From IMG/VR virus record IMGVR_UViG_3300045988_132703: 64,000 nt of DNA; one strand, given 5' to 3'. The notes under the pieces were generated by a model. That model was given only the letters and a program-made list of their open reading frames with translations. It ran no database searches and had not been told where the DNA came from. The DNA is from a virus. Positions 1 through 63,135 of this stretch are shown in pieces; the stretch's first letter is position 1; each line of letters begins with the position of its first letter. The translations under genes and the position numbers were made by a program.

Positions 1-3000
1 TTACTTGAAGAATCAGACTCTTATGTTTTTAAGAATAACCCCAACTATTCTCCAACTCTTTATCCTGACCCAAATGACGAAAGCCAAAATATAGAAGGAT
101 ATATTCCAGATAGATGGACAAGAAATGTTTTAAAAATAGGACAAAATTCTTTTCCAATTAACGATTATGAGACTCATACGGAGCAATATTATAATACTCA
201 AAAACCAGATACTTATTTTGTAGGAACAAAAGCAATAGGTAACGGTAATTCAGAAGTTTATTATACACCTGTCAAAAATTTAAGTTACTATACTTATAAT
301 TATTCTTATGATGCGAGTAATAAGACTTATCAATGTATTGCCTCAAGTCACGCATCTGCTTCTACTCTTGTTAGAAGTAATATTTCTGGCATTGTTGAAA
401 ATGCAATAGTAAAAGATTCTACTGGCGCGATTGTATCTATTTCAGACAAAGTTACCGGACGAGATTTATTTAATGCAACAAATAATAATAAATCTATTTC
501 CTATTCTCTAGGCAGCACATCTATAGTTACTGAACAAGTTACAAATAATGGAGTATAGGATATTGTAAATGCCACTTATGACATTGTTTGGGGTTCAACA
601 GGAGAAAATAAAAAGAATAGTAATTTATATAATTTTACTGTAAAGCAAGAAATAACTTCCTATGATTCCAACGGCGCGCCAATCGTTACAGAAAACATTC
701 TTACTGGTACTCGTTCTTTACTCGGAATGAGCAATTTACTTTATATTGACGCAAAAACGGGTAGTTATCGTAATGGTTCTTCTTATCTCACAGAAGAAGA
801 AATTGCGGCAATTTAGGGCAAAGCATTAGCAAGTACAACTATTGATTTACTTAACAGTTCAACTTATTCTACTTTAAGTGAAGAAGATATTGATTTTAAT
901 AAAGATAACGAAACTACAATTTATACTGTAGAATTAGAAGATGAAAAAATTCAATATAATAAAACTACTTCTACTAATGAAATACTTACTCGTGAAAAAG
1001 CGAAAAAGAAAGGAATTATTGATAAAAATGCAGCTGATATTTTAATTATTTTAAGTTCAACAGATTCTTCTGTTGATTCATCAAATACTTTTTTTACCTA
1101 TGATGAAATTTCTAATATCAAAGATTCAGATTACGGATTATATACTTTGGGACGAGGATTGTCTGATGATAAATTAAGTTTAATTAGTCCTAAAGATTCA
1201 ATTAATCAAATTGGTGAATTAACTGGTAATTAGGTTCTTTATTTTACTGTCTTAAATAATTATTATGATAGTAATTATTACTATTTTACTAATTAGAAAT
1301 AGCCAGATATAAATTTTTAGATTAATGATGTCCCATATTACTCTTTTTTAGCTTATTCTGAATAGATTGCTGCGGGTAATAAACCTACCTCTTCTGAACA
1401 CGGATTATTAAATCATTTTACTTTTTAGAAGTCAAAAACTCAGATTTTACCTTTGTCAAATTCGTCTGTTGGTTCTGAAGACAATCCGCTAGTAACCTTG
1501 CAGAGATTTTTCCCTATTGTTTCTTCTCTTGCGGGAATGCCTTATAATTTTAAATATTACAAATTTAAAATTCAAGGTGGAACAATCAATGAAAAAGGTA
1601 CGGTTATTTATAATAGTGCTCCTCTTTATGAGTCGGGAAAAATCTTCTCTCGTAGTATTTTAATTGATTATAATAATTATGTCACCGATTATGATAGATA
1701 TAGAATAGAATTAATGTTAGCTACCTCTGAAAATGGTTTCTATTATTATTATACTTATTTATATCCTACAATTGATATGTTCCAAGACGATGAAAAAGAC
1801 GACCATTTTGCTTCTGTTTCTTACGATGAAGAAAAAGGAGCGGCAAAAATTTCTTGGACTAAAGATAACGCTTATCCTCCAGCATTAAAAGGAGTAGAAA
1901 TTACTGAATATGGTACTTATATCACCAATGGTAAAAAATTCCCATTAAAAGCATATAAGATTTCAAAAGATGGGTATATAACTTACTATCATAAAGGTAG
2001 TGAAATTTTAAATATTAATCCACTTCATGATTTTCAAATTAGTTTTACTATTGATAAGGTTTTAAAAGGACTAGACAAAATAACTATCGATCCTCTTATA
2101 GCTTTTAATAACACTCAAAATGCAACTGTCATTAGTCTTTCAGTAGAAGATAATATAATTGAATTAATGGAAGATAATGTTACAATCAAATCTTCTAAAA
2201 ATACAATTATTGAAACTGTTCAATCTTTTATTGATTGGGATGATGATGATACACACAAAAATCAAATTTTCCAATATCGTCTACCAGAAGCTACAAATAA
2301 AACAGAAGATGTTTTATTACCAACCAATGGTGTTCTCGCGCCAACAGAACAAAACTTATCTAAGTACTGTTTCCACTTTTATTTATTCCCCTGGTCTACA
2401 AAAGGCTCAAATGAAGCAAAAGCTTCTTATAAAATTACTCGTTTTTATAATGTAGACAGTTGTGCGACAAATGAACTAATCATGGAATCTGAAGATGAAT
2501 GGCGTTTAGGTTTCTATGGCGAAGGCGCAGGTAATAATGCGGATTTAAGCAATGGCAGTAATAATTTACCATCTGGCCCAACCAAAACTAATTTTGATAC
2601 TTCAAAGTACATTTCTGTTTCTTATCTCTTAAGCGGCGGACGTCCCACTTCCCAAATGTTAAATGGTTTAAGTAAAATTAATCTCTATGGCGAAGTTCTT
2701 TATTATGGAATTTTAGATATTAACCGCCGAGGCATAATTGCAAGTGAAGATAATTTTATTTTAAATTTTAATGATAGTAATGTTGGATTTTCTTCTTTAT
2801 CGCGCGAAGTATACGGTTATAGAATTTTCCGCAATGTTTATGAAAATGACAATGTAAATAGTAGAGATATAGCTCTTGATTTTATGCGCCAAATGGATAC
2901 TGTTTATGCTTCTATCTGTGGTGCAATTACACTAGATGATTCAAACCATAGTCCTCTTGGTAAATATGAAAATATTGTCGATACCGCAACTTATGTTCAA

Positions 3001-3852
3001 GGCTGGGATGAAAATGGAAATGCTATCGGATATATTCGTGGAGCAGATTTAAGAGCATTAGTAAATGATAGTTTCACCGATTTAAGACAGGCGATGGATG
3101 AATATTTTGCAGGAAAAGATTTAAGTTTTAATTTTAATACTGAGCCTTTTGATGAAATTTATAGCTTACTTGACGGCATTCAAACTCCTAACATGATTGC
3201 TAATGATATGATTGCGGACATTAATATTTTTAATTATACAATATCGGAAGAAGCTGGACAATATTATATCTATGATTATAACATTCCAAGTAATGGCTAT
3301 TTTAGATATTAGATTGTTCCTTTATTAAGAGATAAAACTTATAATGTTTTAATCGCCAAAACTAACAATAATGGTGAAACCATTATTTATATAGATGATG
3401 AACAATGGCATATGACTGACATAAAGAAACGTGCTGACGGTAGTTATGCTCCCGGCGATACTTGGAATTTCCTTTTAGGAGTCCAGAGTGCGCAATATAC
3501 TCAAAACTTTACAAAAACTCTTCAAACTGGTTTTGCCCCATATCCTAAAGTCATGACCAGTATGGCTAATTACAAGACAACTCAATTTACTGGTTATTTA
3601 GGTAAATTTAGTTTTAGAAATGGTGGCTCTAACGTATATGAAGATACCATCGATCGTATTGAAAAATGGAATGAATTTGCATATGCACGCAATCAAATTT
3701 TAGTCAAAGATCCAAAAGGTCACGTTTTCATTGCCGCAATTTCTGCAACCTCTGACATTAGCGATGCAGCAATTCCAGAAATGCCAACTCAAGTTACCTG
3801 CACCTTAACTCAAGTTGGAGATATTGATTCGTTTAAGGTATATTCTCTGTGA
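1..3852 (+). CDS. Large virion protein (tail fibre / host-recognition type), 5'-partial, read with TAG=Gln
   Basis: Frame 1 is open from nt 1 to TGA at 3850 if TAG is sense. There are 9 in-frame TAG (556, 814, 1231, 1294, 1300, 1318, 1363, 1426, 3310). It joins track ORFs 1453..3312 and 3412..3852. Function is inferred only from size and position upstream of a baseplate-like gene. Confidence 0.6.
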
Positions 3853-3861
3853 GGTGTTCAA

Positions 3862-5085
3862 ATGGAATATTTTAACTACACAGGGAAGGAGTATAGAGTA
3901 GCGGTTCAATCTGCTACTTTATATCCCGTTATAAAGGTTGAACTACTTGATTAGTTTGAAAATGCTTACGCCGAAATTTCAGAAGAAATTACAGATAATA
4001 GTGGCTCAATTCAGTCAACTTTATAGCAAGGAGTTCGTAATACAGTTTCTTTTTCTATTTTTGATCCAGCGGGAAAATTTATTCCAGATGCAAATAATAA
4101 TTTGTTTTGGGTTAGAAAAAAATTTAAATTATATGTCGGACTTGCGACTGAACAAAAAGCAATTTAGCTTAATGGTCAAACCACTGGAATTTCTGGAGAT
4201 ATATTTTGGTTTTCTAAAGGCGTTTACATCATTACTGATATAAGCGCGCAAAAAGATAGTTCTGGCAATCAGACAATTTCTTTTACTGGCGTTGACAAAT
4301 ATGGAGCTTTTACTAACGATACTGGTTATGGCGAAATGATTGGAACTTTTTCTTTTGATATAGGAATGTCAATCTCTTATGTCATTAAAAATGTTCTTAA
4401 ACAAGATATTGGTAATGGTCAAATGCTTGATCCTCTTGAACCAATTATTGATCCAGACCTTCAAGAATATAAACTTCAACTTGCTTTTAGTAAAGGTCCC
4501 GGCTCTTATATTGGAGACCTCTTAAATGATTTAGCTACTACTCTTCATGCTGATATTTATTATGACATGGATGGACATTTGAATGTCAAAAAGTCATTAA
4601 ATTTTGATGAATATAAAAATGTCCAAAATCAATGGGATTTTACAGAAGGAAGTGCAGAGTATATCTCTGCGCAAGTAAATTATTAGTTAAAAAATATTGC
4701 TAATTATATTTATGTAATTGGTGATAATCCTCTTGGGGGACAAATTCCTGTCGCAATAGCTGAAAACAATGACGCTCGCTCACCATTAAGTATCGCAAAA
4801 ATAGGACGTAAATCTCGTTATATCGAGAAAAGTACTATTTATTCTCAATAGGAAGCTGAAGATTATGCACAATATATTTTAAAAACCGCTTGTCTTTTAG
4901 GTAATCAAATTTCTTTTACTTGTACTTTAATTCCTAGTCTTGAACTTGATAATACTTTTTCTTTAACAGATTCTTACTATCAATATGATAGACAAGAATT
5001 TATTATTACTGCAATTACTTATCCTATTGGCGTTGGTACAATGTCTATCAGCGGCAGTAGCATAAAAGAATTACCGGAGAATTGA
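3862..5085 (+). CDS. Baseplate/tail hub-like structural protein (XkdQ/gpD-like, tentative)
   Basis: GAGGTG RBS at 3851-56, ATG at 3862, TGA at 5083. 5 in-frame TAG. Includes track ORF 4336..4686. Function is assigned from context and weak remembered similarity. Confidence 0.5.
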
Positions 5086-5087
5086 TT

Positions 5088-5654
5088 ATGGCTTTAAATA
5101 AGTATGGAAGATAGATTATTGAAGTAATAGATTAGAGAATTGATTCCTATATAAAAGAATCAAAAATTACAGTCCGTTATATTGGGCAAATAAAAGAAGT
5201 TCTTGGAAATAATAGATATAGAGTATAGCTTGTTGGCTATGATACTATTTACACTTTTCCCGCACGCCCCTATGTTGATTCGATTGTAAATGATTATGTT
5301 TATATTGAAAGCAAAGCTGGAAATATTGATAATGGTATAATTATTGATAAATTAAATGGTAGTTATGGTTATATTTACAATGCCAATGGTTCAGTAGACC
5401 AAGATTTAAATAGTCAAGGCGCAATGTTAAAATCAGTTTATGACAGAGACAACAATGGTATCGTAGATAATGCAACTCGTGTTAATAATCATACAGTTCA
5501 ATCTGATGTTCCAGCCAACGCGCAATTTACAGATACTACCGATGCTTCCGGTATCCGTATGGCAAATGGGCAAACTGTTGAGCAAATTATTAATTCTATA
5601 AGCGCCGCTGTAGGCAACAGCGATTCTATTGACGAAGGCTTTTACTATAATTAA
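5088..5654 (+). CDS. Tail-fibre-like protein
   Basis: ATG at 5088, 3 in-frame TAG, TAA at 5652. Carries the motif MLKSVYDRDNNGIVDNATRVNNHTV...VPANAQFTDT seen in phage fibre proteins. A related motif occurs in 39655..40158. Confidence 0.5.
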
Positions 5655-5660
5655 AATTAA

Positions 5661-5694
5661 AATAAGGGTCAAATTTCTGATCCTTATTTTTTTT
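5661..5694 (+). terminator. Rho-independent terminator
   Basis: 11-bp stem 5661-71/5778-88-equivalent (AATAAGGGTCA / TGATCCTTATT, one G:U pair), 6-nt loop, then a T-run at 5689-94. Confidence 0.6.
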
Positions 5695-5702
5695 AAATTT
5701 CA

Positions 5703-5730
5703 TTGGCAAATTTTGCCAAAATTTTATAAT
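5703..5730 (+). promoter_or_regulatory. Sigma70-like promoter with overlapping palindrome
   Basis: TTGGCA (5703-08), 16-nt spacer, TATAAT (5725-30). The perfect palindrome TTGGCAAA/TTTTGCCAA (5703-5719) covers the -35 and spacer. Confidence 0.5.
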
Positions 5731-5773
5731 TCTCAATTAGGCTTTTCGCTTTATAGATGAAGGGGTGAGATAG

Positions 5774-5995
5774 ATGAATGATAAATTTCTTGATGCAATG
5801 ATTGAGCAAAGTATTCAAATGATGACCGATGCTTGTCATGGAAAAACATTAAGCAAAGATGAAATGGCATTTATTATTGCTACACAAAAAGCAGAAGATA
5901 AAAGAAAACGTGCTCAAATACTACCAAATTTGATTAAAAATTCTCAAAATATTTTACCACTAATTAATTCATTATTTGGCGGTGGAGGTAATTAA
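5774..5995 (+). CDS. Small hypothetical protein
   Basis: Track ORF with RBS GAAGGGGTGAG upstream. No TAG, ends in TAA. Confidence 0.5.
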   Translation: MNDKFLDAMIEQSIQMMTDACHGKTLSKDEMAFIIATQKAEDKRKRAQILPNLIKNSQNILPLINSLFGGGGN

Positions 5996-6486
5996 TGAAT
6001 AATCTTTATCAGAATATGCAAGGATAGCAATTTAATCCTGCGACAATATCTTCTATACCCTATAAACCTATTACTTTTGAAAAATTATCTAATGTAATTG
6101 GAATGACTTATAATTTATCTGCCATTGAAAATATGAACACTATTTCTCTTCCTCGCGGTGGAGAACAACAAATTTTCTTTGTTAATAACGACGATAGAAT
6201 TTATACGCGAGCTTTTGACAACAGCATTGGCATTATTGCCTATAAACAGGACTATGTTGAAAGACTTCAAAAAGAATTAAATGAAGCACAATCCCAATTA
6301 CACGAAATTTTTGAATCAGTTACTCAAAATGAACAAAGTAATGAAACTTCTCCTTTTGAAGAAAGACTTTCAAAAGTAGAGCAACAATTAAATGAACTAA
6401 TATCTAAACAGGAGGTTGTTTCTAATGAACATCCAGAATCTAATAAAGCTATGGCCGCAATATCAAAATTGGCTGAAACAAAATAA
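5995..6486 (+). CDS. Hypothetical coiled-coil protein
   Basis: ATG overlaps the previous TAA (TAATG). 1 in-frame TAG. Extends track ORF 6103..6486 upstream. Confidence 0.5.
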
Positions 6487-6739
6487 TATTACTCCTAATA
6501 ATATCCAATAGAAGATTCCAGAATTTGTTCAATAGGTACGACAAAATCCTGAAGATTCAAAGCGCTTAGATTCCTATTTGTCTAATCCAAATTTGACAAA
6601 AATTGCCAAATCATAGTTTAATTTAACTGATGATTAGATAAATAAAATTAAAGAAGTTGCAGGCGTAAATCAAACACCAGTAGGTTCTGGAAATTTAACT
6701 CCAGAACAATTAAATTTAATTAAAAAGTTTAGAAAGTAA
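6425..6739 (+). CDS. Hypothetical protein
   Basis: AGGAGG RBS 9 nt upstream of ATG 6425. 4 in-frame TAG, TAA at 6737. Overlaps the previous gene by 62 nt in another frame. Confidence 0.45.
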
Positions 6740-6795
6740 GTGCGCATTAACCGACTAAACTTTAAATAAATAAAATTTTTAAGGAGGATTCATTT

Positions 6796-7515
6796 ATGGA
6801 TTCTATTGGCTTAGGCGACATTCTTGCTGTTATGAACCAAAAAGATAATGACGGTTATGGTTGGGGTGGCTCTTGGTTTTGGGTTATTATCCTTTTCTTC
6901 TTCTTTGCTTTCTTTGGTCGCGGATTCGGTGGCTATGGAGATTCTGGTGCATTAACTCGCGCGGAACTTTATGACGGTTTAAACTATACTCAATTGCAGA
7001 ATGGCATTCGTGAAAATCAATCTACTATGCGCGAAGGCTTTTATGACAATGGTATGAACAATATGCAAGGTTTTAATGTAATCCAGAAAGACTTATGTCA
7101 AGGCTTTAACAGCGTAAATTCTAATATAAGTCAAGGATTTGATGCTGTATCAGCACAAATGGCTCAATTAGGCTATCAGCAATAGAGCTGCTGCTGTGAC
7201 ATTGAACGTTCTATTGATAATGTTCGCGCAGAAAATTATAAGAACACTTGCGAAATTACTAATGCTATTCATTGTGAAGGAGAGCAAACTCGCGCATTAA
7301 TTAATGCTAATACTATGCAAGAACTTCGCGATCGTTTAGCAGATCGTGATCGCGATTTGCTTACTGCTAACTTCCAGCTCAGCCAGCAAGCCCAGAGTGC
7401 TAACATTATTAGTACTCTCCGCCCATTCCCACAACCAGCTTATATTACTTGCTCTCCTTATGAAAGCGTATATGGTAATGGCTGTGCTCACGTGAATGCT
7501 GGTTGCGGCATCTAA
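6796..7515 (+). CDS. Membrane-anchored Cys-rich protein
   Basis: AGGAGG RBS. Joins track ORFs 6796..7185 and 7315..7515 through the TAG at 7183. Has an N-terminal Gly/aromatic TM segment (WFWVIILFFFFAFFG) and an SCCCD Cys cluster. Confidence 0.6.
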
Positions 7516-7534
7516 TTATTAAAGGAGGAATAAC

Positions 7535-7945
7535 ATGGTAAATAGTTATACTAATACCAGTGTCGCTGTTGCTAGTAACGCAGCTATTCCTTTTGTTAAT
7601 AATAGATATGTAGTTGGTTGTGGAACCAGTCATACAGCTGGTTCTCCAACCGTTACTTTAAGGAAAACTGGATATTATTTAGTTAATTTCAGTGGTGTTT
7701 TAAGTGCAGCTAGTACTGGTTTAGTCTCAACTCAATTATATAATAATGGAGTTGCAATTCCTGGTGCGCTAAGCTCTATAACAATTGACACCGCTGGAAG
7801 TCTTAAAAATGTTTCTTTCTCAACAATAGTAAGAGTTCTAAATTCTTGTGCTTGCATAGACAATACAGCTAATCTGACAGTTGTTAATACTGGATTAGAA
7901 GCTACTTATTCTGATGCTGAAATTACTATCGTAAGATTGAATTAA
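7535..7945 (+). CDS. BclA C-terminal (C1q/TNF-like) domain-like protein, tentative
   Basis: AGGAGG RBS, no TAG. The beta-rich pattern (GYYLVNFSG...QLYNNGVAIPG...NLTVVN) recalls exosporium BclA-CTD jelly-roll domains. This is from memory only. Confidence 0.4.
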   Translation: MVNSYTNTSVAVASNAAIPFVNNRYVVGCGTSHTAGSPTVTLRKTGYYLVNFSGVLSAASTGLVSTQLYNNGVAIPGALSSITIDTAGSLKNVSFSTIVRVLNSCACIDNTANLTVVNTGLEATYSDAEITIVRLN

Positions 7946-7956
7946 GGAGTGTTACT

Positions 7957-8253
7957 ATGGAAATAGAAGCTCTGTTAAAAACAATGATGGATGAGCTAAA
8001 AGACGCATAGATGATGTATGATTATGCTTGTGGTTCTAAAAAATACGGCCATGATGACCTTATGACTTTTTATATCACTCGCGCAGAACAACGTTTAAAA
8101 ATGTTTGATGAAGATCATGCTATCATTCTTCGTGAAATAGGCAAGAAAGAAAAAGAAGGATATTTCGCAAAGGAAGGGAAATGGGATTATCTTTATGACT
8201 ATTACATGGATCAAAAATGCGATTTAGCTAATAAAGTCAAAAATTTTAAATAA
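7957..8253 (+). CDS. Hypothetical protein
   Basis: AAGGAG RBS, ATG at 7957, in-frame TAG at 8008. Extends track ORF 8011..8253. Confidence 0.5.
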
Positions 8254-8254
8254 A

Positions 8255-8300
8255 TAAAAAAAGAGAGAGGACTCTTAATTGAGTCCTCTCTTTTCGTTTT
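8255..8300. terminator. Bidirectional rho-independent terminator
   Basis: 11-bp stem AGAGAGGACTC/GAGTCCTCTCT (8264-74 / 8281-91), flanked by an A-run upstream and a T-run downstream. It lies between convergent genes. Confidence 0.7.
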
Positions 8301-9045
8301 ATCCCCATTGAAACATTTCAACAGGTTTACAGTTCCTAGTTCCATAACGCCCAATACAAATTGCATCTGCTTCATCTTCAGTAACATTTATATCGAACCA
8401 ATCTCTTACATGAACCTAAGCACTTCGTTTTTTATCAGTCCTTGTTTTACCTTTAATTCCAACATCAGCGCGCCAGGTAGACGAAGACACAACTTTAAAA
8501 TCTACGCCCTACTCGCGCAAAGAAACTTGAAGAACTCCGAGCAATTCAGCCAAAGCTTTATAAACAGTAACCCCATTTACGGCCTCGCCATTAAAAACTG
8601 ATTTTCCTTCAATTTTCTATTGATACTAAATATCTTCAAGTAAAACAATATCTGGTTTATAATTAATAATTAAATTAGTTAGCCACTAACGAATTTCAAC
8701 TAATCTATCAACAGTGTCTTTTGATTTAGCTTTAAAAACACCATACCGCAATAAAGTTTCGTCGTCCCATAATGACCAACCACTTATTTTTGTAGCCTAA
8801 TCTAGCGCGAGAATACGTCTAGCTTCCGTTTTTTGAATAGGAGACATATCCATTTTTTTCAAAGGGTTGGAATTACATATTGGACACTAAAATTTATTTC
8901 TAATTTTTTTATATGGCGCAATAACTAAATGACCTTCTGGGCATTCAAACTCCATGTCTGTTGATAAATTAATATATTCTTCGCTTCTAACTTTCCAACC
9001 TTTCTCAGCTAGATCAGAACGAATCTAATCTAGTGTTATTTTCAT
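8299..9045 (-). CDS. ruvC: RuvC-like Holliday junction resolvase with N-terminal Zn-ribbon
   Basis: ATG at 9045, TAA at 8299, 8 in-frame TAG. Motifs: ILALDQATKISGW (TAG supplies the Q), LLEDI, DEADAICIG. Confidence 0.7.
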
Positions 9046-9827: not shown

Positions 9828-9981
9828 AAGAGTTTTCAATCTCCTTTAGTTCTTGTAAAATTTTTCTTACTCCTTCTCGCCACATTGGCATATCAGGAGA
9901 ATATTCTCCATTTGCAATAGAAATATTTATCTTATTTTGAAGCTGTTTTAATTCAGCTTGTAAATCTTGAATAGTTTTCAT
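9820..9981 (-). CDS. Small hypothetical protein
   Basis: 53-aa ORF coupled by ATGA overlaps to both neighbours. Confidence 0.35.
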   Translation of the reverse strand: MKTIQDLQAELKQLQNKINISIANGEYSPDMPMWREGVRKILQELKEIENSYE

Positions 9982-11054
9982 AATCTAGGTCTCCATTTAC
10001 CACTATCTCGAACTTGGCGAACATTTAAATTAGCCAATATATACAAATTACGGTCAGCTTGGATTGTTTGATTTATCAATTTGCATCGCTCTTTGCCAGC
10101 AATATGATAAACTTCATCCATAACTGTTTTATTAGAAGTAGGATTCAATTTATAAGTAAGAATATTTGAAAAAGCTCTCATTAAAATCTCATAAACAGTT
10201 GCTGCACCATCCCAATCATCTGGTTTTAAATCCACTTTTATAGGAATTTTTACATTGCGCGAGGCGCCATAAAAATAAATATTTAATGCAGCAATAAGAG
10301 CTTTTCGACTAGTAGGTTTCTCATTTAAAGGCACATGATAACCACAGTAGCAATTAAAACAATCTATATATTTCATTAATTTAGTAATAGGTATCCCATC
10401 ATTATGAACTAAAAATAACGCCTATCTACTATCAGTTATTGCTTTACTATTGGAAGAATAATAAACAAATAAATCTAAATCTTTTATCTAGCTGCTGTGT
10501 AAAAATAATAATTCATTTCCTCTTGAAGTAAAATAGTCAAATATTTCTTTTGCATAAGAGCTATTATAAAAATTATAATCATATAAAATGATTTTTTGAT
10601 TAGAATAATTTAGTTTAGTATAATCAATTAATAACTCATTTCCATTTGTTATTCTTAATAAAATAAAATCTTCGCTTAAAATTTTCTTAACTATCTAATT
10701 TTTAGTTCTAGTGGTAAATACATTTTCGTGAGTTTTTACAAAAGTAGAATAAAATGTCCTATCAGGAGGACTATGTTCAACTTCTTCTGGAAGTTTTACA
10801 TAATTACCAGTAAAGCCTCTACCTACCCATTGTAAATTACTTTGCAATAAAAAAGAAGAAGGAAAGTCCTTCTAAGAAAGACTTTCCCTAGAAAGATAAA
10901 GTATATCATATTTTTCACTATCTTCAAAAGATAGGACAAATTCTACTATATCTCCTCTTTTTTTATGATAATAGGACAATTTCATCAATTCAAGAGATGG
11001 ACAAAACTTCGCAGGATTTAAAAGAATATCCTAATCAAATATTCCAATATACAT
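9978..11054 (-). CDS. Hypothetical protein
   Basis: ATG overlaps the dnaE TAA (TAATG). 5 in-frame TAG. Extends track ORF 9978..10376. Confidence 0.5.
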
Positions 11055-47622: not shown

Positions 47623-47632
47623 GGAGATTATC

Positions 47633-49633: not shown

Positions 49634-49647
49634 AAGGCGGTGATATA

Positions 49648-50724: not shown

Positions 50725-50727
50725 TAA

Positions 50728-51840: not shown

Positions 51841-51850
51841 GGTGATTGTT

Positions 51851-52522: not shown

Positions 52523-52626
52523 TATGGCAGATGCTTATGAATTAGACGAGAAAGACATTCAAATTCAATCTGATTCGTCTAAGAATACATTAATGACTGC
52601 TGAGGAAATTTATAAAAAGTTAGGGT

Positions 52627-54999
52627 GTGACGCGCTTGAATGATGAAATTTTGAATATCATTGAAAGCGCCAGAAAATCTCATAATAATAAACAGGCGTT
52701 GTTCTTAGAGAAGTATATTGATTATTACAATATGCCGGTTAAGAACAACGTTATTTTATATGAGTCATTTGCGGGCGCGGGTATGATTGATAGTCCTTAC
52801 GCAATTTTTCTGGAATTTTTGCATAATAAAAAATTTAATGACTATATTCATGTTTGGGTAATTAATAATTTTGAAAACAATAATTTTAGACTATTGGAAT
52901 ATGCAGATAAACCAAATGTAAGATTTATTTTATATGGCTCAAATGATTATCTTAAATATATCTCAATAGCACGCTATTTAATTAATAATAATACTTTTCC
53001 TACCTACTGGACAAAGAAACCAGGACAAATTTATGTAAATACTTGGCACGGCGTTCCGCGCAAGAAATTATTTTTTGATATTCCTAATAATAAAATGAAT
53101 ACTGGGAATGTTATGCGAAATTTTTTAAGTGCTGATTATTTACTTGCTAGTGATGATTCAATAGAAAAAATGTATCTGGGCGCTGCGAGACTTAATAGAT
53201 TATGCAATGATAAAATAATTCGCACTAGAGATTTTAGAAAAGAATTAATTATTCCTAAGAAACAAGTTTTTAAGCAACTTGATATGGTAGGAATGATAGA
53301 TTTATCAAAAGAAAGAAAACCAATCGCTTTGTATGCCCCCACTTGGCGTGACGGAAAGTATTCTGTTGATACTGAAATTATTCGAGAATTAGGAAATTAC
53401 GGTTATCGTGTTTTAGTTAAAGCGCACCATGTAGATTATGAAAATAGAGCGAGATATATTCCATCTTCTATTGATATAAATACTTTATTTCCAATTTGTG
53501 ATTTGTTGGTGACAGATTATTCAAGTGTTTTTTATGATTGGATAAATTATGGTAATAATCCAGTTATTTTTTATGCTCCTGATTATGAGGAATATTGTCA
53601 AAAGCAAGGACTATACCAAGACTTTCCATGTGCGCCCGCGAAGAATATTGAAACTTTTAAAACATATCTTGAGAATCTTGATGATTATTGGGAAAAAGTT
53701 CAACAACAAGTTTGGGAACAAGGGACTAATGTTTGGACTGATAAAGATATAAATATTTATGAATTTTTAGAAGGACTTTTGAGTGAAGCTGGTTTTAATA
53801 CTCCAAAAGTGAATGATAAAAAACGTTTGTTATTCTATGCTGGAGATTTTAAGCCAAATGGAGTAACATCTTCTATTCTTTCTTTATTCAATAGAATTGA
53901 TTATAGTAAATATGATGTTTCGCTTATTCTTTTGAAAAAAGATAATCCAGATTATTTGGATAAAATAAATGAAATTAATCCCAATGTTCGTTTACTTGTC
54001 CGCGCGGGAACATATAATCAAACATTACTTGAGCGTTGTGCGAATGAAATCTGTCTTAAAAAAGGAATAGATTCTTTTGAATTAGATAAAATGTTTCCTC
54101 GTGAGCTTTACCGCAGAGAATGGAGACGTTGTTTTGGCGACACTCATTTTGATGCGATAATCAATTTTACTGGTTATAGTCCTTTTTATGCTTATTTTTT
54201 TGCCTATGGTATTAAAAATTCTTCTACTATCCAAAAAATTATTTGGCAACATAATATAATGAAATTAGATCAAATGAGAGAAATTGATGGCAAGTATCCT
54301 TTAAAAGATTCTCTTAATGCAGTTTATTCAACTTACCCTATGTATGATAAAATAGTTTCTGTTAGTGAGCAATGCTTAGAAGCTAATAAAAAAGATTTTC
54401 CTTTTTATGAATCTAAAATGGTGCTGGTCCATAATTTTATTGCTCAACCTTATGATTTATTTGCAAAATCAAATCCCAAATATGCAAATTTTGAGCAACA
54501 TTCTTTTTCGACAGAAGCAGTTTATTTGAATGTTGCGCGTCTTTCTCCTGCAAAGAATCAACTTAATTTGATTAAGGCTTTTAAAGATTTTCATATAAAA
54601 TATAATAAGACTCAACTTTATATTATGGGCGATGGAGAATTAAAAGATAAGATTCTCAAAGAAATAAAAGACTGTGATTTCATTCATTTAATTCCATATA
54701 ATAAAAATCCATTTGCTAATATGAGGAATGCGAATTATAATATTCTTCCATCCGTCTACGAGGGGCAAGGACTTTCTGTAATTGAAGCGAAAGTACTTGG
54801 TAGAAAAACCATTGTTACAGACTTTGGCGTGGATAAGGGAGTAACGGATATAGCAGATATTTTAATTCATGGGACAGATGAGTACGCTATTAGAGCCGCA
54901 CTTGAAGATTCGATTCATTCTTGGAACAAACCTGTTATTGAATTTGATCCATATAAATATAATGAAGAAACAAAAAAGGAGTTTGACTCTCTATTTTGA
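52627..54999 (+). CDS. CDP-glycerol glycerophosphotransferase (TagB/TagF family) fused to a GT4-type glycosyltransferase
   Basis: VNTWHGVPRKK and LYAPTWRD (TagF-family motifs). C-terminal LPSVYEGQGLSVIEAKVLG (GT1/GT4 E-x7-E). GTG/TTG start is uncertain. No TAG in 790 codons. Confidence 0.7.
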   Translation: MTRLNDEILNIIESARKSHNNKQALFLEKYIDYYNMPVKNNVILYESFAGAGMIDSPYAIFLEFLHNKKFNDYIHVWVINNFENNNFRLLEYADKPNVRFILYGSNDYLKYISIARYLINNNTFPTYWTKKPGQIYVNTWHGVPRKKLFFDIPNNKMNTGNVMRNFLSADYLLASDDSIEKMYLGAARLNRLCNDKIIRTRDFRKELIIPKKQVFKQLDMVGMIDLSKERKPIALYAPTWRDGKYSVDTEIIRELGNYGYRVLVKAHHVDYENRARYIPSSIDINTLFPICDLLVTDYSSVFYDWINYGNNPVIFYAPDYEEYCQKQGLYQDFPCAPAKNIETFKTYLENLDDYWEKVQQQVWEQGTNVWTDKDINIYEFLEGLLSEAGFNTPKVNDKKRLLFYAGDFKPNGVTSSILSLFNRIDYSKYDVSLILLKKDNPDYLDKINEINPNVRLLVRAGTYNQTLLERCANEICLKKGIDSFELDKMFPRELYRREWRRCFGDTHFDAIINFTGYSPFYAYFFAYGIKNSSTIQKIIWQHNIMKLDQMREIDGKYPLKDSLNAVYSTYPMYDKIVSVSEQCLEANKKDFPFYESKMVLVHNFIAQPYDLFAKSNPKYANFEQHSFSTEAVYLNVARLSPAKNQLNLIKAFKDFHIKYNKTQLYIMGDGELKDKILKEIKDCDFIHLIPYNKNPFANMRNANYNILPSVYEGQGLSVIEAKVLGRKTIVTDFGVDKGVTDIADILIHGTDEYAIRAALEDSIHSWNKPVIEFDPYKYNEETKKEFDSLF

Positions 55000-55397
55000 A
55001 AACTGTCTTAACTTATGGTACTTTTGATTTATTTCATCAAGGGCATTTAAATCTTCTTCTCCGCGCGCGGAGTATGGGAGATAGATTAATTGTAGGTTTG
55101 TCAACAGATAAATTTAATAGAGATAAAGGAAAAGAATCTTACTTTACCTTTAGTTAGAGGAAAGAATTACTATCTACTCTTGATTGCGTTGATTTAATTA
55201 TTCCAGAAAATAACTGGTGGCAGAAAAAGCGCGACATAATGAATAATCAAGTAGATATTTTTGTCATGGGAGACGATTGGAAAGGTAAGTTTGAATCGCT
55301 TCGTGATTATTGTAGCGTAATTTATTTACCTCGCACCGAAAATATATCTAGTACCGATATAAAGGAGGAGATAAATAGTGCTAATACCAGAGTATAA
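54996..55397 (+). CDS. tagD: Glycerol-3-phosphate cytidylyltransferase
   Basis: GTFDLFHQGH, GLSTDKFN, VMGDDWKGKF. TTG start overlaps the upstream TGA. 1 in-frame TAG. Confidence 0.8.
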
Positions 55398-57540
55398 AAA
55401 GACAGAATGGATTGATAACGGTCCAGAGTATAATCAAGATAATTTTAATAATTTTGAGAATCAAATTGAAAAGTTAAGCAAATATGATTCTTATCATTAG
55501 AAGCAAGTTTATTTGATGGGTTAGAAGTAGTATAAACTTCGTACTTTTACACAATATTGCTGGGATACTCTTGCGGATACACATTTTAAGATTGCAATGT
55601 GTGGAGACTCTGTTTGGTTTGGCTATAATACTTTAAAATCAACAGGCGTTAATGACGATAATAACGCAACAAATTATTACACTGGTAATGCGAATGAAAG
55701 ATTGGATACATCGACTGTAATTGCTGTTCCTACTACTTTTACCTATCCAGATGGTATGTATAAAGACAATAGAAAAGGAACCGCTTCTGCTTTTGACCGT
55801 ATCTTGAAGAAGAGTGGTAGTACTCGTCAATCTAAAGTACGTCCACCAGAAGTAATGATTGAAGCGCTCAACGAAGTCTTTGGTAAGGGTATTAAAGATG
55901 GGCAAGAATTTGATAAGTTTGAGCTTATAAACCAAATTTATACTGGTGATGATGCCTATTGCGCGTATAATCGTTGGGGTGCTTCTGGTGCAGATATTTG
56001 GATGTGTAATCTTGGCATTAATGATGCAAGCGCGGATTTTGTTAATAATGCATATAAAGGTCATGTTGATGAGTTTTTTAAATATTATACTGCTTTAATT
56101 GAGCGCGAGCTTGATAATGGAACTCCTTGTGTAATTATTACACCAGTTCTTCAAACTCAAGCTGCTTCTTATGATTTTGATAAACGTCAGCAAGTTATGG
56201 CTTATGCGGAAGTTCTTCAAGAGATTGGTAAGTTGTATGGCATTCCAGTTATTGACGGAAGCGACTTTAACCGTAATTTTAATGGTAATCAATGTATTGA
56301 TTTTACCCATATGACCAATGACGGTAATAATACAGTTGGCAAAGAGATGGCATCATTGTTTATTGCTGGATACCTAGGACGTCCATTAGTTGTTGAAGAT
56401 GGCTTGTTCTTATCCGCCCGTGTCCAACAAGATAACATTAATGTACGTGGTAATGCCGTTATTGATTATTCGAAGCATTCTCCAACAATGCCTACTCTAT
56501 TAAACAGTCCAGATCTTTATGCAACTGAGCCAAGTCGTGAAAATATGGGCTTGACTGTTTATATGAATTATCCATTAAGCAATAATGAGACTGCGGAAAT
56601 TGTTGACGGACGGTTAGTATATAATACTCCAGATGGGCAAAAGATTGAGTTCAATTTGGACAATTTCCCTTATTATAACGTCTTATGGCGTCAAGCCGAT
56701 TTAAAAGCACGTTCAGACATTGATAGTGCAGTGGCGAAGATTGCATCTCCTATTGCTACAGCTTATGCTACTGATGTAGCTAATGCTGCGACGGATTCTT
56801 GGGATTCTGAGAAGATGATTGAGACCAAAGTCTATGGTGATGCTTATTGGGCGATGTATGAAAAAGTTTATTCTCTTTGCTACAATAATACTCAAAATCT
56901 TGCGGCTGGAACTACTTATTGGATGGATAATCCTAATTCAATTCCATCAACAGTTAAAGGTGATAGCAAATATAGCTTTAGTTTTGCAAAAGATATTAGT
57001 TTAGGAACTACTTATGCTGATATTTATGCAAATCAAATTGTTGAGCTAACTAAGCGCCATACTAATGCAAACAATTAGCAAGATGATGGAGCTATTTATT
57101 ATAGTTTTTATTGCCCTCAAGATGGAATGGTTGCAGTCCCTTATTTGTATGCAAGTGCTTCTTCTGTTTATACTGATGCTGAAAAGCAAAGCAAATTTAA
57201 GGTTGATTTAGCGCTTGACTTTGGCGCAACTCAAGGTTGCCCGCAGAATACATTCGAATGGAATAATGAAGAAAGTTTAATTGTAGACGACGGTGATGAG
57301 CACGCGACCAATGGAATTAGCGTCCCGTCTACTTGCTCTATTGAATGGAGAAATTTGAGTAACAAAGGCTATTATTCAAAATTCCAAATTAGGGATTATA
57401 CTGCTCCTGTAATTGATATAGTATCAAAAGGTTGGCACTCAATTCGCATTAATTCCGCAGCTGCTTCTACTTTTGAATTTTATGGATTGCAATTCCTTGA
57501 TCGCCACACTTATAATTCTTGGATAAAAAGCTAGGAGTGA
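55378..57540 (+). CDS. Tail fibre/spike with SGNH esterase domain
   Basis: AAGGAGGAG RBS, GTG at 55378. Fibre-type N-terminus (EWIDNGPEYNQDNFNNFENQIEKL). CGDSVWFGY, LGINDA, DFTHMTNDGN. 5 in-frame TAG. Confidence 0.65.
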
Positions 57541-57545
57541 TTTAA

Positions 57546-57920
57546 ATGGCACAAAAAATAACACTCCAACAGAATGATAATGGTATCAAGTTATTATTCA
57601 CTATATCTAAAGATAAACAAGTCTCAGATATAACTAATTCAAAAATTAGAATTAAATTTGCAAATCCTTCGGAAGGAACAGAGTTTTGGAAAGAAGCTAA
57701 AATTGTAGATGCTGAAAACGGACAAGCCCAATGTGTTTTATTTAAAAAAGATATTGTTGGAATAGGAACTTATTAGACCGAAGTTGAGACGACTTACCCA
57801 AATGGAGTTCGTCTTTCTAGTAAAAATCCATTTTTAGTTACGATTGTTCCAGAGATATTTGAAGAAACTCAAGAAGTAGTTGAAGATTTTCCCGACTACA
57901 AAGACGAAAATTTAGAATAA
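57546..57920 (+). CDS. BppU_N-like Ig-fold domain protein (tentative)
   Basis: 1 in-frame TAG at 57774. The pattern matches baseplate upper protein N-domains from memory. Confidence 0.4.
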
Positions 57921-61042: not shown

Positions 61043-61115
61043 TTGACAATATTTACCTCTTATGATATAATTATATTAGAAATAGTATAATTATACTCAT
61101 AAGAGGTATTTTTTT
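61043..61115 (+). promoter_or_regulatory. Consensus promoter nested in a 12-bp inverted repeat + U7 (terminator/promoter module)
   Basis: TTGACA (61043-48), 17-nt spacer, TATAAT (61066-71). Arms TACCTCTTATGA (61054-65) and TCATAAGAGGTA (61097-108), then T7. Confidence 0.6.
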
Positions 61116-62162
61116 ATGTATCAATTTTCAATAGTAATCCCTTGTTTTAATAGTTCTCCATATATCGCAGCGACACTTGAGTCAATTGTAAATTAGCATT
61201 TAGGTGATAAAATTCAAGTTGTACTCGTGGACGATTGTTCAACAGAACCATTTGATGAAGTAATAAAGCCTTATGAAGAAAAGCTTCATATTAAAAAAGT
61301 AAAAACAGAAAAGAATCTTGGGACTGGTATGGCTCGTCAATTTGGTATTGATAACGCCGATGGTGATTGGGTTATTTTTTGTGACCATGATGATTTCTTC
61401 GTGCCTAATACTTTCAACAGAGTTAGAACAATCATTCGCAATAATCCCAGCCGCAATATAATTCAAACTAGATTTCAAGAGGTAACTCAATCTGGCGAAA
61501 TAATCCCTTATTCTCTTGAGAAAGGGATGAATTGGGTTCATGGAAAATTTTTTAGAAGAAGTTTTTTAAAAGATTATAATTTAACTTTTTGTGACGGGCT
61601 TGAAACGCATGAGGATATTTATTTTTCAATTTTAACTCGTTTAATGACAGAGCATCTTGGCGCGCCAACTTTAAATTGCGATTTAATAATTTATAATTGG
61701 GTTAATCGACCAGAGTCTCTATCTCATAGACGTGAAACTGGTTTAGATTTATTTTGCAATCATTTTCAAGATTATGTTACAAGTGCACTAGGCCCTCTTG
61801 ATAAATTGCATAATGAATTATCTTTAGAGGAAATTTTATCTCAAGGTTTAAGTTCTTTCTTATTTGTTTATTTTTATGTACAAGGATTTTACCAACTCGG
61901 ACGTGGAGATGCAAAAGAATATCGTAGAATAATGCTTAATTGCGTTAAAAAGATTATGACTTACACTGGATTTAATTCACAACAATTAGAATCTATTCTT
62001 GGTCAAAATCCTGCGACTTTTTGTATGATTCGTGAAAAAGCTTTTGATTCAGTTGGTTATTTCTTTGAAGTTGATAATGTTGCAGAGATTATCGAGTCCG
62101 CAGAAGCAGAGTTAATTGAATCTAAGGAGAAAGAATTAAAGGATGAACAATCAGAGAGTTGA
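61116..62162 (+). CDS. Family 2 glycosyltransferase
   Basis: IPCFNS, VVLVDDCS, CDHDDFF. In-frame TAG at about 61194. Paralog of 42396..43442. Confidence 0.75.
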
Positions 62163-63135
62163 TGTTATAATTCCTTTTTACAATCAAAAAGATTTTTTAG
62201 TTAGATGTTTAAGTAGTATTCAAGTGTAGACGATTTCAGATGACATAGACGTAACTATTATAGATGATTGTTCTGATGAAAACATTGATGATATTATTAC
62301 GTTTTTTAAGCGTTTTTTAAATATAAATGTACTTCATTTAAATCGTAACAAAGGACCTGGCTATGCTCGACAACTAGGATTAGATATTACTTCTGCGCCT
62401 TATGTCTGTTTTATAGATGCAGACGACATTTTTGAAAACGCTTATGCTGTAGAATATATGCGTGGATTGATGCTTGTTAATAAGAAAAGACCTGCTGTAT
62501 TCACATCGTTCGTTGAGGAGTGCAGCGATGGACGAAAAATTCCTCATATTAAAGATAATACATGGATATTTGGAAAGATTTATTCTCGAGAATTTCTTAA
62601 TGAAAACAAAATTGTTTTCAGTGATAGTCGAGAGAATGAAGATAAAGGTTTTAACTGTGCAGTAATGCTTTGCGCGCAGAAAGATCCAAATAACGGAATT
62701 CGTTTTGAAGATCGTATTACTTACTCTTGGAAGTGGAATGAAAAATCTATTACAAGAGAAAATAATTTTGACTATCGTCATAGAGATTTAATTGGCTTTA
62801 CTTATAACACTCTTGATGCTATTCAAATCGGAATTAAAGCAAATGCTCCGATAAATGCGATAGCAAGGCAATCAACTGTTACTATGATATATCTTTATTA
62901 TCGTTATCTTGAAAATTTAAAGACTAATGATTATTCTAATGAAGATATAATTAAATATTGTTATGATTTTTATATGCAAGCGTATAAAAATTATGGTTAT
63001 AAACCAACAGATAGAGAATTTAAATTTATTAAAGATAATCAAACTACGACATTTAGAAAAAGAAATTTGATAGATGTAGATAGTGTCCCTATTTCTTTTG
63101 AAAATTTTATTCTAAATCTTGATGGAAATATTTGA
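62143..63135 (+). CDS. Family 2 glycosyltransferase
   Basis: IIPFYNQ, TIIDDCSD, FIDADD. 1 in-frame TAG. 20-nt overlap with the upstream gene. Confidence 0.7.

What the first reader, a model, noticed from the sequence alone, without database searches (positions are those of the whole stretch)
1..63135. TAG is decoded as a sense codon (Gln): code-15-like stop-codon recoding
Across the window the only codon that breaks long coherent reading frames is TAG. Reading TAG as sense fuses about 60 fragmentary track ORFs into about 40 full-length genes with RBSs. I found no gene that ends in TAG, since every closed gene ends in TAA or TGA. TAG falls exactly on conserved Gln positions: GH25 'WIA-TAG-YG' (40693), M23 'G-TAG-LIGYAG' (41212), RuvC 'LALD-TAG-ATKISGW'. 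Stop-codon recoding in phages is known but uncommon. Here it affects structural, lysis, glycosyltransferase, nuclease and some replication genes.
Basis: partly seen in the sequence, partly recalled or inferred. Interest (0 to 1): 0.8.

Follow-up and report, generated by a model that had tools for sequence, protein, structure and literature searches.

The report
Phage reads TAG stop as glutamine
This window is part of a large uncultured phage genome that reads the stop codon TAG as glutamine, mostly in late genes; the reassignment is real, but it is a known phage trait (genetic code 15) seen here in a lineage with no close sequenced relative.

Summary

- **Coding coverage:** treating TAG as sense raises long-ORF coverage from 73% to 92%. 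Treating TGA as sense gives only 77%.
- **Extent:** 42 of 71 ORFs of at least 70 aa carry 116 in-frame TAGs. All 71 end in TAA or TGA.
- **Spanning domains:** Pfam GH25, M23 and GT2 domains run across TAGs. Selection continues unchanged downstream of the first TAG.
- **Amino acid, close relatives:** in 8-10 close relatives, TAG is either kept or swapped for CAA/CAG (46 of 52 alternate-codon events, 47 of 52 in the reverse direction).
- **Amino acid, divergent relatives:** two divergent recoded relatives give Gln by at least 46 log-likelihood units over Lys.
- **Amino acid, standard-code homologues:** a standard-code relative has CAA at three near-invariant RuvC Gln columns that are TAG here. 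Five solved GT2 alignments (four proteins) have Gln at the TAG of the GT2 motif.
- **Gene-class bias:** TAG makes up 17-21% of Gln codons in tail and lysis modules but 3.7% in the replication module.
- **Suppressor tRNA:** none lies in the window. All eight close relatives whose fetched DNA reaches that far carry an identical tRNA(CUA), with its own promoter-like site, 1-2 kb beyond the point matching the window's end.

Group I introns also break the replication genes. The GH25 and M23 TAG sites are not Gln family-wide.

This is a new member of a known kind.

The parts
727..8253 (+). Late (tail/baseplate) gene block. 7 of 8 ORFs carry in-frame TAG: 20 TAGs, 17% of Gln-type codons.
   Evidence: Gene list. 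PHROG tail protein hit for 3862-5085. TAG share. TAG interchanges with CAA/CAG in relatives.
8299..9045 (-). RuvC-like resolvase gene with 8 in-frame TAGs. Codons 83 (8797-8799), 140 (8626-8628) and 210 (8416-8418) sit on near-invariant Gln columns.
   Evidence: Pfam RuvC. In 54 homologues these columns are Q in 83%, 96% and 94%. The standard-code relative L048 has CAA at all three. All 8 TAGs are conserved in 8 close relatives.
9978..11054 (-). ORF with a PHROG match to a radical-SAM domain family, carrying 5 in-frame TAGs.
11054..31843 (-). Replication module: DnaE-type polymerase pieces, RecJ-like gene, DnaB, AAA_24 ATPase, GyrB/GyrA. It is TAG-poor (7 TAGs in 5,757 codons, 3.7% of Gln-type codons) and several of those TAGs are not in real coding sequence. 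Several genes are split by group I introns; DnaB is also in two pieces but has no intron hit at its junction.
   Evidence: Gene identities come from homologous called genes in L036, L048 and L009.
32953..35370 (-). Two group I introns (33875-34178 and 35199-35370) with LAGLIDADG homing-endonuclease ORFs (32953-34119 and 34331-35212) that themselves contain in-frame TAG. They interrupt a PIN/PhoH gene whose exons are 35362-36099 and 32502-32903.
   Evidence: Rfam RF00028 at 59.3 and 56.5 bits. Pfam LAGLIDADG_3. PIN_4+PhoH is a single gene in L036.
38646..57920 (+). Late/lysis/cell-wall block. 15 of 19 ORFs carry in-frame TAG: 49 TAGs, 21% of Gln-type codons.
   Evidence: Holin and GDSL identities come from called genes in L036.
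40216..41640 (+). GH25 + M23 endolysin with TAG at 40276, 40693, 40981, 41011, 41212 and 41521.
   Evidence: The full-length Pfam GH25 (residues 8-185) and M23 (254-367) domains span five of the TAGs. Relatives show TAG, CAG or CAA at codons 160, 266, 333 and 436. Coordinates checked.
42345..43442 (+). GT2 glycosyltransferase with 5 TAGs. Codon 45 (42477-42479) is the conserved Gln of the N-terminal GT2 motif.
   Evidence: Pfam GT2 residues 23-179. All 5 solved-structure alignments shown (four proteins, one matched in two domains) have Q at this column.
61116..63135 (+). Two further GT2 paralogues (61116-62162 and 62143-63135), each with one TAG (61194 and 62227) at the same motif position by inspection of the paralogue sequences (not separately aligned).
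   Evidence: Translations. Codon 29 of 62143-63135 is CAG (6) or CAA (3) in the nine relatives. Coordinates checked.
63207..63791 (+). Start of a tRNA array: His(GTG) 63207-63284, Leu(CAA) 63428-63504 and Gln(TTG) 63721-63791. There is no CTA-anticodon tRNA inside the window. In the eight close relatives whose fetched DNA reaches that far, the suppressor tRNA(CUA) lies 1.0-1.9 kb downstream of tRNA-Gln, beyond coordinate 64000.
   Evidence: ARAGORN. Rfam tRNA.

Best explanation
The window is part of an uncultured tailed-phage genome. Close relatives are 176-179 kb, G+C is 32%, and the host is probably a Gram-positive Firmicute. TAG is read as glutamine, which is genetic code 15.

Shown here:
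- TAG is translated through.
- It behaves as a synonym of CAA/CAG.
- It is essentially not used as a terminator.
- It is concentrated in tail, lysis, cell-wall-modifying, resolvase and homing-endonuclease genes, and nearly absent from the replication module.

Shown in relatives, inferred for this genome: a dedicated phage tRNA with anticodon CUA lies in the tRNA array that begins at the window's 3' end. It has U1-A72, a short variable loop and an encoded CCA, with its own promoter-like and terminator-like sites.

Inferred from established knowledge and the published model for recoded phages:
- Host enzymes charge this tRNA with Gln. It then competes with release factor 1 at UAG.
- TAG-free early genes can be translated with the host's standard code. 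TAG-rich late genes yield full-length protein only once the suppressor has accumulated.
- Recoding would therefore gate the production of virion, lysis and homing-endonuclease proteins.
For: Read-through:
- Coverage rises from 73% to 92% with TAG as sense, against 77% with TGA as sense.
- Coding bases rise from 45,990 to 58,317.
- Pfam GH25, M23 and GT2 domains span TAGs.
- The window RuvC (248 aa, 8 TAGs) aligns over 250 columns to a 246-aa standard-code orthologue.
- There is no ribosome-binding-site enrichment after internal TAGs.
- Among close relatives, substitutions after the first TAG are 73% third-position and 76% synonymous. Before it they are 75% and 78%.

Glutamine:
- 105 of 118 TAGs align to relatives. 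The aligned codons are TAG 663, CAA 63, CAG 63 and all others 28.
- At position level, the alternates are Q 46, E 3, K 1, W 1 and stop 1. In the reverse direction they are CAA 27, CAG 20 and others 5.
- The likelihood over 106 and 78 aligned sites in the divergent relatives L036 and L045 ranks Q first, with K at -46.6 and -58.9.
- Using only standard-code partners (23 sites), Q is still first, with E at -2.2.
- RuvC columns 140, 210 and 83 are 96%, 94% and 83% Q, and are CAA in standard-code L048.
- GT2 codon 45 is Q in all 5 solved-structure alignments shown, from four proteins.

No TAG terminators: stops are TAA 48 and TGA 23.

Gene-class bias: TAG/(TAG+CAA+CAG) is 17-21% in the late blocks, 36% in the RuvC block and 3.7% in the replication block. 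Fisher odds ratio 6.3, p = 5e-8.

Suppressor tRNA:
- An identical 76-nt tRNA(CUA) is present in all 8 relatives whose locus reaches that far.
- It is invariant while its flanks vary.
- It scores 31.5 bits on Rfam tRNA, against a gathering score of 29, and folds as a cloverleaf.
- A TTGACT-17-TATACT site with an upstream TG and a terminator-like hairpin flank it.
- tRNAs with the same anticodon arm occur in other IMG/VR phage contigs; on three of the five extra loci coverage rises most with TAG as sense.

The overall pattern matches the published description of code-15 phages (bioRxiv 10.1101/2021.08.26.457843; PMC9523058).
Against: - No tRNA(CUA) lies inside the window, and the window's own contig could not be found. 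The suppressor is therefore inferred for this genome.
- The window's tRNA region differs from the relatives. Its tRNA-Gln has a different sequence with no encoded CCA, and a homing-endonuclease-like ORF follows it.
- The CUA tRNA only just passes the Rfam gathering score, was missed in the 8-kb scan, and has a bulged T stem.
- The identity of its charging enzyme is unknown.
- The endolysin TAG sites are not Gln in distant homologues.
- A few TAG positions align with E, K or W in relatives.
- Five ORFs have a TAG within their last 10 codons, so occasional use as a terminator cannot be excluded.
- There are no expression, timing or proteomic data, so temporal gating is inference.
- Each tRNA gene seems to have a strong sigma-70-like promoter, which may mean the suppressor is made early rather than late.
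Confidence: 0.88

Rival explanations
1. TAG is an ordinary stop. The fragments are separate short genes, pseudogenes or assembly errors.
For: Under code 11 the window still gives 82 ORFs of at least 60 aa. Some naive 'in-frame' TAGs do lie outside real coding sequence, in intron tails or upstream of true starts.
Against: Pfam domains and full-length alignments span TAGs. The TAGs are conserved or swapped for CAA/CAG in 8-10 independent assemblies. Purifying selection is unchanged downstream of TAG. Fragments have no ribosome-binding sites of their own.
Confidence: 0.01
2. TAG is a sense codon but encodes another amino acid, such as Lys, Glu, Trp or pyrrolysine. ARAGORN labels the CUA tRNA 'Pyl'.
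For: ARAGORN's label. A minority of aligned positions show K, E or W. With only 23 standard-code sites, Glu is just 2.2 log units behind Gln.
Against: Alternates are 88-90% CAA/CAG in close relatives, including many two-nucleotide TAG-to-CAA differences. Gln leads Lys by at least 46 log units in each divergent relative. Near-invariant Gln columns in RuvC and GT2 are TAG here. The 'Pyl' label only reflects the anticodon. No Pyl-system protein turned up in the window proteins that were scanned, but the scan was incomplete.
Confidence: 0.03
3. TAG means Gln, but the phage does not impose it. Either the host itself decodes TAG as Gln, or read-through relies on host or near-cognate tRNAs such as the phage tRNA-Gln(UUG), with no dedicated suppressor and no temporal switch.
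For: No suppressor lies in the window. TAG is not used as a terminator even in early genes. The window encodes tRNA-Gln(UUG).
Against: TAG is about 5-fold depleted in the replication module, which is not expected if the host decoded it freely. All eight close relatives whose fetched DNA reaches that far carry a conserved tRNA(CUA). The lineage has standard-code members (L048, L009). Related endolysins occur in Ruminococcus records, which NCBI names as full-length family members. Genes with 8-11 TAGs could not be made by low-efficiency near-cognate read-through; this last point is an inference from general knowledge.
Confidence: 0.06

Closest known systems
Alternatively coded (genetic code 15, TAG to Gln) gut phages described by Borges et al. 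(bioRxiv 10.1101/2021.08.26.457843): the Lak, crAss-like, Garnet, Amethyst, Agate and Topaz clades
   Same: - The coding-density gain under code 15 is far above their thresholds of 5-10%.
- In-frame TAG is concentrated in structural and lysis genes and variable in replication genes.
- Low G+C, with TAG lost as a terminator.
- A phage suppressor tRNA(CUA) is present.
- Standard-code relatives occur in the same lineage.
- A recoded group I intron homing endonuclease sits in an early gene. They report this for Agate, although there the recoded codon is TGA.
   Different: - Clade membership could not be tested, because the window has no terminase.
- There is no nucleotide match to any of 50,697 deposited phage records.
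- The replicase is a DnaE-type polymerase, closest (38% identity) to SPbeta-like and Enterocloster phages.
- Relatives are 176-179 kb.
- No release factor or tRNA synthetase was seen, but only part of the genome was examined.
crAss-like phages with proteomically validated code 15 (Peters et al. 2022, PMC9523058)
   Same: The reassignment is the same (TAG to Gln), and in that case it was shown by LC-MS/MS (abstract).
   Different: This is a different phage group. From background knowledge, Crassvirales are about 100 kb, infect Bacteroidota and use family A or B polymerases. There is no sequence similarity. The window shows Gram-positive-type features: a GH25+M23 endolysin and TagF/TagD-like enzymes. 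No proteomics are available here.
phAss-1 / proposed Phassvirus (Babkin et al. 2023, PMC10607447)
   Same: An uncultured gut phage with TAG inside 41 ORFs, including hallmark genes, and with suppressor tRNA genes (abstract).
   Different: That genome is 136 kb with three suppressor tRNA genes. I did not compare the sequences specifically, and the search of deposited phage records found no near match to anything.
Classical amber suppressor tRNA-Gln(CUA), such as E. coli supE (background knowledge)
   Same: The molecular mechanism is the same: a tRNA with anticodon CUA inserts Gln at UAG in competition with release factor 1. The relatives' tRNA shares the U1-A72 first pair that marks bacterial tRNA-Gln.
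   Different: Here the tRNA is encoded by the phage, and the genome has adapted to it with more than 100 sense TAGs and no TAG terminators. The tRNA is only 48 of 78 identical to the phage's own tRNA-Gln(UUG). Charging was not tested.

Membership tests
Genetic code 15 (TAG to Gln) alternatively coded phage | Coding density clearly higher with TAG as sense than under code 11. The published threshold is more than 5% for contigs of at least 100 kb and more than 10% for 5-100 kb. | tested here: met
   Long-ORF coverage rises from 73.3% to 92.2%. Coding bases rise from 45,990 to 58,317 of 64,000. The TGA-sense control gives 76.7%.
Genetic code 15 (TAG to Gln) alternatively coded phage | In-frame TAG inside conserved genes, giving correct-length proteins rather than artificial fusions. 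| tested here: met
   GH25, M23 and GT2 domains span TAGs. RuvC is 248 aa against 246 aa in standard-code L048. Gene order and lengths match those of the called genes in L036 and L045.
Genetic code 15 (TAG to Gln) alternatively coded phage | TAG aligns with glutamine in homologues. | tested here: met
   The exception is the endolysin sites, which are Gln only within the close subfamily.
Genetic code 15 (TAG to Gln) alternatively coded phage | TAG is not used as a terminator. | tested here: met
   71 of 71 ORFs end in TAA or TGA. At most 5 have a TAG within their last 10 codons. This is partly by construction, hence the caveat.
Genetic code 15 (TAG to Gln) alternatively coded phage | A phage-encoded suppressor tRNA with anticodon CUA. 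This is frequent but not universal; it was detected in about 40% of published TAG-recoded genomes. | tested here: inconclusive
   Absent from the window. Present and identical in the 8 close relatives whose fetched DNA reaches that far, just beyond the point that corresponds to the window's end.
Genetic code 15 (TAG to Gln) alternatively coded phage | Recoded codons are enriched in late (structural and lysis) genes relative to early genes. | tested here: met
   17-21% against 3.7% of Gln-type codons. Odds ratio 6.3, p = 5e-8.
Genetic code 15 (TAG to Gln) alternatively coded phage | Gln is found at TAG positions in the proteins themselves. | not testable with these tools
   This needs proteomics.
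Genetic code 4 (TGA to Trp) phage | A coding-density gain with TGA as sense. | tested here: not met
   76.7% against 73.3% coverage. Mean ORF length is unchanged at 185 against 186 aa.
Pyrrolysine decoding of UAG | TAG aligns with Lys or Pyl positions, with pyl genes and a tRNA-Pyl-type structure. | tested here: not met
   Lys is at least 46 log units worse than Gln. The CUA tRNA matches the general tRNA model with a normal cloverleaf. No pyl domain was found among the 30 window proteins scanned against Pfam or PHROGs, but not all proteins were scanned.
Crassvirales (crAss-like phages) | Sequence relatedness to crAss-like genomes. | tested here: not met
   There is no megablast match in 50,697 phage records. 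The replicase is DnaE-type, closest to SPbeta-like and Enterocloster phages. Hallmark capsid and terminase genes are not in the window, so this is only a partial test.

The most novel reading that the evidence does not exclude
This may be an undescribed lineage of roughly 175-180 kb code-15 phages that infect Gram-positive hosts. In this reading, a stand-alone, promoter-driven amber-suppressor tRNA acts as the code switch. The replication module, unusually dense in group I introns (at least 7), carries homing endonucleases whose synthesis is also gated by in-frame TAG. Recoding would then control mobile-element activity as well as lysis timing.
Probability: 0.35. Interest if true: 0.5.

Novelty: new member of a known kind. 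Interest (0 to 1): 0.35.

Why it matters
**Practical.** Any standard-code annotation of this genome would shatter about 40 genes, including the endolysin, tail proteins, resolvase and glycosyltransferases. The genome must be called with translation table 15.

**Biological.** It adds a well-supported case of amber-to-Gln recoding, backed by codon-level comparison across relatives, in a large phage that probably infects a Gram-positive host and has no close sequenced relative. The lineage contains both standard-code and recoded members, which makes it useful for studying how recoding arises. The TAG-rich homing endonucleases and the self-contained suppressor tRNA unit give concrete handles for testing the published 'recoding as late-gene gate' model.

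The phenomenon itself is already established, so this finding does not open a new question.

Tried and rejected
- **Finding the window's own contig.** Exact-protein look-ups of two TAG-free window proteins found nothing on record. An exact 48-nt match to the window's 3' end found nothing in JGI metagenomes. The genome's own suppressor tRNA therefore could not be checked.
- **Deposited phages.** Megablast of 40-60 kb against deposited phage records gave no match.
- **Solved-structure alignments of the endolysin.** TAG positions aligned with N/R/H, T, T and Q/E, which is uninformative for Gln. The 120-homologue alignment likewise showed that codons 160 and 333 are not Gln family-wide.
- **Wider search of IMG/VR.** An alignment-based search with the ligase recovered only the same close relatives.
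- **Standard-code phage L046.** It shares only 5 genes with the window, and its 7-8 aligned sites were too few to be informative.
- **Sequence context of sense TAG.** The base after TAG differs only weakly from that after CAA/CAG (p = 0.03), with no clear suppression context.
- **tRNA(CUA) identity by similarity.** Gln is nominally closest (48 of 78), but the differences between tRNAs are small. Only the U1-A72 pair is distinctive.

Full report
**What the window is.** It is 64 kb of phage DNA with 32% G+C. Tail and baseplate genes lie on the plus strand at 0.7-8.3 kb. A minus-strand block at 8.3-38.5 kb holds RuvC, dUTPase, a DnaE-type polymerase, a RecJ-like gene, DnaB, an AAA_24 ATPase, gyrase subunits, PIN/PhoH and a ligase. 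A plus-strand block at 38.6-63.1 kb holds a GH25+M23 endolysin, a holin, glycosyltransferases, GDSL esterases and teichoic-acid-type enzymes. A tRNA array begins at 63.2 kb.

The closest sequences are uncultured IMG/VR contigs of 176-179 kb, 92-99% identical at the protein level. Nothing in 50,697 deposited phage records matches at the nucleotide level. The polymerase is only 38% identical to those of SPbeta-like and Enterocloster phages. Endolysin homologues occur in Ruminococcus records. Together with the TagF/TagD-like enzymes, this points to a Gram-positive host.

- Coverage by ORFs of at least 100 aa is 73.3% under the standard code, 92.2% when TAG is read through and 76.7% when TGA is read through.
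- A non-overlapping gene set grows from 45,990 to 58,317 coding bases, and mean length rises from 186 to 262 aa.
- 42 of 71 ORFs of at least 70 aa contain 116 in-frame TAGs. All 71 end in TAA (48) or TGA (23).

**Is TAG translated through?** Four independent arguments say so.
1. Full-length Pfam GH25 (residues 8-185) and M23 (254-367) domains in the endolysin, and the GT2 domain (23-179) in 42345-43442, span several TAGs.
2. The RuvC gene has 8 TAGs, and its longest TAG-free stretch is only 45 codons. It aligns over 250 columns with a 246-aa orthologue in a relative that uses the standard code. That relative is L048, with code-11 coverage of 0.955 and no in-frame TAG in the aligned genes.
3. 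Among close relatives, substitutions downstream of the first TAG of a gene are 73% at third positions and 76% synonymous. Upstream of it they are 75% and 78%.
4. The first start codon after an internal TAG has a Shine-Dalgarno-like motif in 13 of 103 cases. The rate is 29 of 335 for random internal ATGs and 44 of 71 for gene starts.

**Which amino acid?**
- *Close relatives.* At the 105 window TAGs that align to 8-10 close relatives, the aligned codons are TAG 663, CAA 63, CAG 63, TAA 11, GAG 7, TGG 5, GAA 4 and AAA 1. Counted by position in genes of at least 100 aa, the alternates are Gln 46, Glu 3, Lys 1, Trp 1 and stop 1. In the reverse direction, TAG in a relative corresponds to window CAA 27, CAG 20, GAA 2, TGG 2 and CCA 1. 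Control codons such as TAT, AAG and GAG change mostly to their own synonyms. The TAA cases fall in doubtful small ORFs or upstream of true starts.
- *Divergent recoded relatives.* For L036 and L045 (roughly 30-85% protein identity), I built an empirical substitution model from the same alignments. It ranks Gln first, with Lys at -46.6 and -58.9 natural-log units, and -108.8 when the two are combined.
- *Standard-code partners only.* With 23 sites, Gln is still first but only 2.2 units ahead of Glu.
- *Conserved columns.* In a 54-member RuvC alignment, the four most Gln-conserved columns are 142, 140, 210 and 83. Three of these (140, 210 and 83, at 96%, 94% and 83% Q) are TAG in the window, and they are CAA in L048. 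Codon 45 of the GT2 enzyme aligns with Gln in all five solved-structure alignments shown, from four proteins. The paralogues at 61194 and 62227 have TAG at the same motif position by inspection, and the latter is CAG or CAA in all nine relatives.
In solved structures they are N/R/H and Q/E.
- *Codon usage.* In the window, TAG (109) is used more often than CAG (97), and CAA (482) dominates.

**How it probably works.**
- No CUA-anticodon tRNA lies in the window.
- In all eight close relatives whose fetched DNA reaches far enough, an identical 76-nt tRNA with anticodon CUA lies 1.0-1.9 kb downstream of tRNA-Gln(UUG). That is just beyond the point matching the window's end.
- The tRNA is invariant while its flanks vary. 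It scores 31.5 bits on the Rfam tRNA model, against a gathering score of 29, although a larger scan missed it. It folds into a cloverleaf with a bulged T stem.
- It begins with a U1-A72 pair. Among the array's tRNAs, only tRNA-Gln shares this. From background knowledge, this pair is a recognition feature of bacterial tRNA-Gln.
- It is flanked by a TTGACT-17-TATACT site with an upstream TG and by a terminator-like hairpin.
- tRNAs with the same anticodon arm but different stems occur in other IMG/VR phage contigs; on three of the five extra loci coverage rises most with TAG as sense.
- TAG accounts for 17-21% of Gln-type codons in the two late blocks and 36% in the RuvC block. It accounts for only 3.7% in the replication block and 4% in the 58-63 kb block (odds ratio 6.3, p = 5e-8).
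- This is the pattern published for code-15 phages. There it is interpreted as letting early genes use the host's standard code while late and lysis genes wait for the suppressor.
- Still inferred: charging of the tRNA with Gln, competition with release factor 1, and the timing.

**Comparison with what is known.** Amber-to-Gln recoding in uncultured phages is well documented. Examples are the Lak, crAss-like and 'gemstone' clades, proteomic validation in crAss-like phages, and phAss-1. The present case meets the published criteria. It differs only in lineage, with no close sequenced relative, a DnaE-type replicase, Gram-positive features and a genome of about 178 kb. The same lineage contains standard-code members (L048, L009) and recoded members (L036, L045, L049). 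I therefore rate it a new member of a known kind, with moderate-to-low interest.

**Side observation.** The replication module is interrupted by many group I introns.
- Two Rfam hits pass the gathering score, at 33875-34178 and 35199-35370.
- Five more reach E-values of 1e-6 to 1e-8, at 12496-12788, 13446-13736, 18242-18424, 28995-29285 and 29388-29622. Two weaker hits were also found.
- The introns share repeat cores and carry HNH and LAGLIDADG endonuclease ORFs that contain in-frame TAG.
- DnaE is a single 1,328-aa gene in L048, and PIN/PhoH is a single gene in L036.
- These introns, not TAG, explain the broken frames in the replication genes.

Noticed in passing
window 11000-36500, minus strand (12496-12788, 13446-13736, 18242-18424, 28995-29285, 29388-29622, 33875-34178, 35199-35370; weaker hits at 28186-28388 and 30650-30681): The replication genes carry an unusually high density of group I introns. 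Two Rfam hits pass the gathering score, five reach E-values of 1e-6 to 1e-8, and repeat families D1, D4, D5, D7, D8 and D9 are shared intron cores. The introns split DnaE, a RecJ-like gene, GyrB/GyrA and PIN/PhoH; DnaB is also in two pieces, marked only by a copy of repeat D8 at 20432-20464. Relatives L048 and L036 have DnaE and PIN/PhoH as single genes.
   Followed up: partly
window 14453-14941, 30683-31321, 32953-34119, 34331-35212 (minus strand); L014 14141-14863: Homing-endonuclease ORFs (HNH and LAGLIDADG in the window, and a homing-endonuclease-like ORF in the relatives' tRNA array) carry in-frame TAGs; the one in the array has 13. The window's LAGLIDADG elements have no aligned counterpart in the close relatives. 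Mobile elements therefore seem adapted to the recoded genome, and possibly gated by it, as published for a TGA-recoded Agate phage.
   Followed up: partly
window 52627-55397, 42345-43442 and 61116-63135 (plus strand): A cluster of cell-wall polymer enzymes: a TagF-like CDP-glycerol glycerophosphotransferase fused to a GT1 domain (790 aa, TAG-free), a cytidylyltransferase-like ORF (identified by eye) and three GT2 paralogues. This suggests teichoic-acid-type modification of a Gram-positive host surface.
   Followed up: partly
window 63130-64000: By eye, tRNA-His and tRNA-Leu are each preceded by a near-consensus TTGACT ... TGCTATAAT promoter-like site. The window's tRNA-Gln(UUG) differs in sequence from that of the relatives and lacks an encoded CCA. 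It is followed by an ORF starting at 63851 that looks like a homing endonuclease, whereas in relatives tRNA-Gly follows directly.
   Followed up: no
window 59855-61042 (plus strand): A phage-encoded adenylosuccinate synthetase homologue (Pfam PF00709, E = 3e-29). It is TAG-free and sits in a TAG-poor block at 58-63 kb next to the tRNA array.
   Followed up: no
L048 (ENA ERZ27257203 k141_5187200), L009, L046 versus L036, L045, L049: The wider lineage contains both standard-code members and TAG-recoded members, with syntenic dUTPase-RuvC and endolysin-holin-GT2 neighbourhoods. This could serve to date and order the steps of recoding.
   Followed up: partly
L056, L059, L060, L057 (IMG/VR 3300028805_000051, 3300031867_000788, 3300024486_000900, 3300028805_000039): Other phage contigs, some of 171-240 kb, carry tRNA(CUA) genes with an identical anticodon arm (GGTGG-CTCTAAC-CCACC) but different acceptor and T stems. 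Three of them again start with U1 and end with A72. This hints at a shared origin for, or convergent constraint on, phage amber suppressors.
   Followed up: partly
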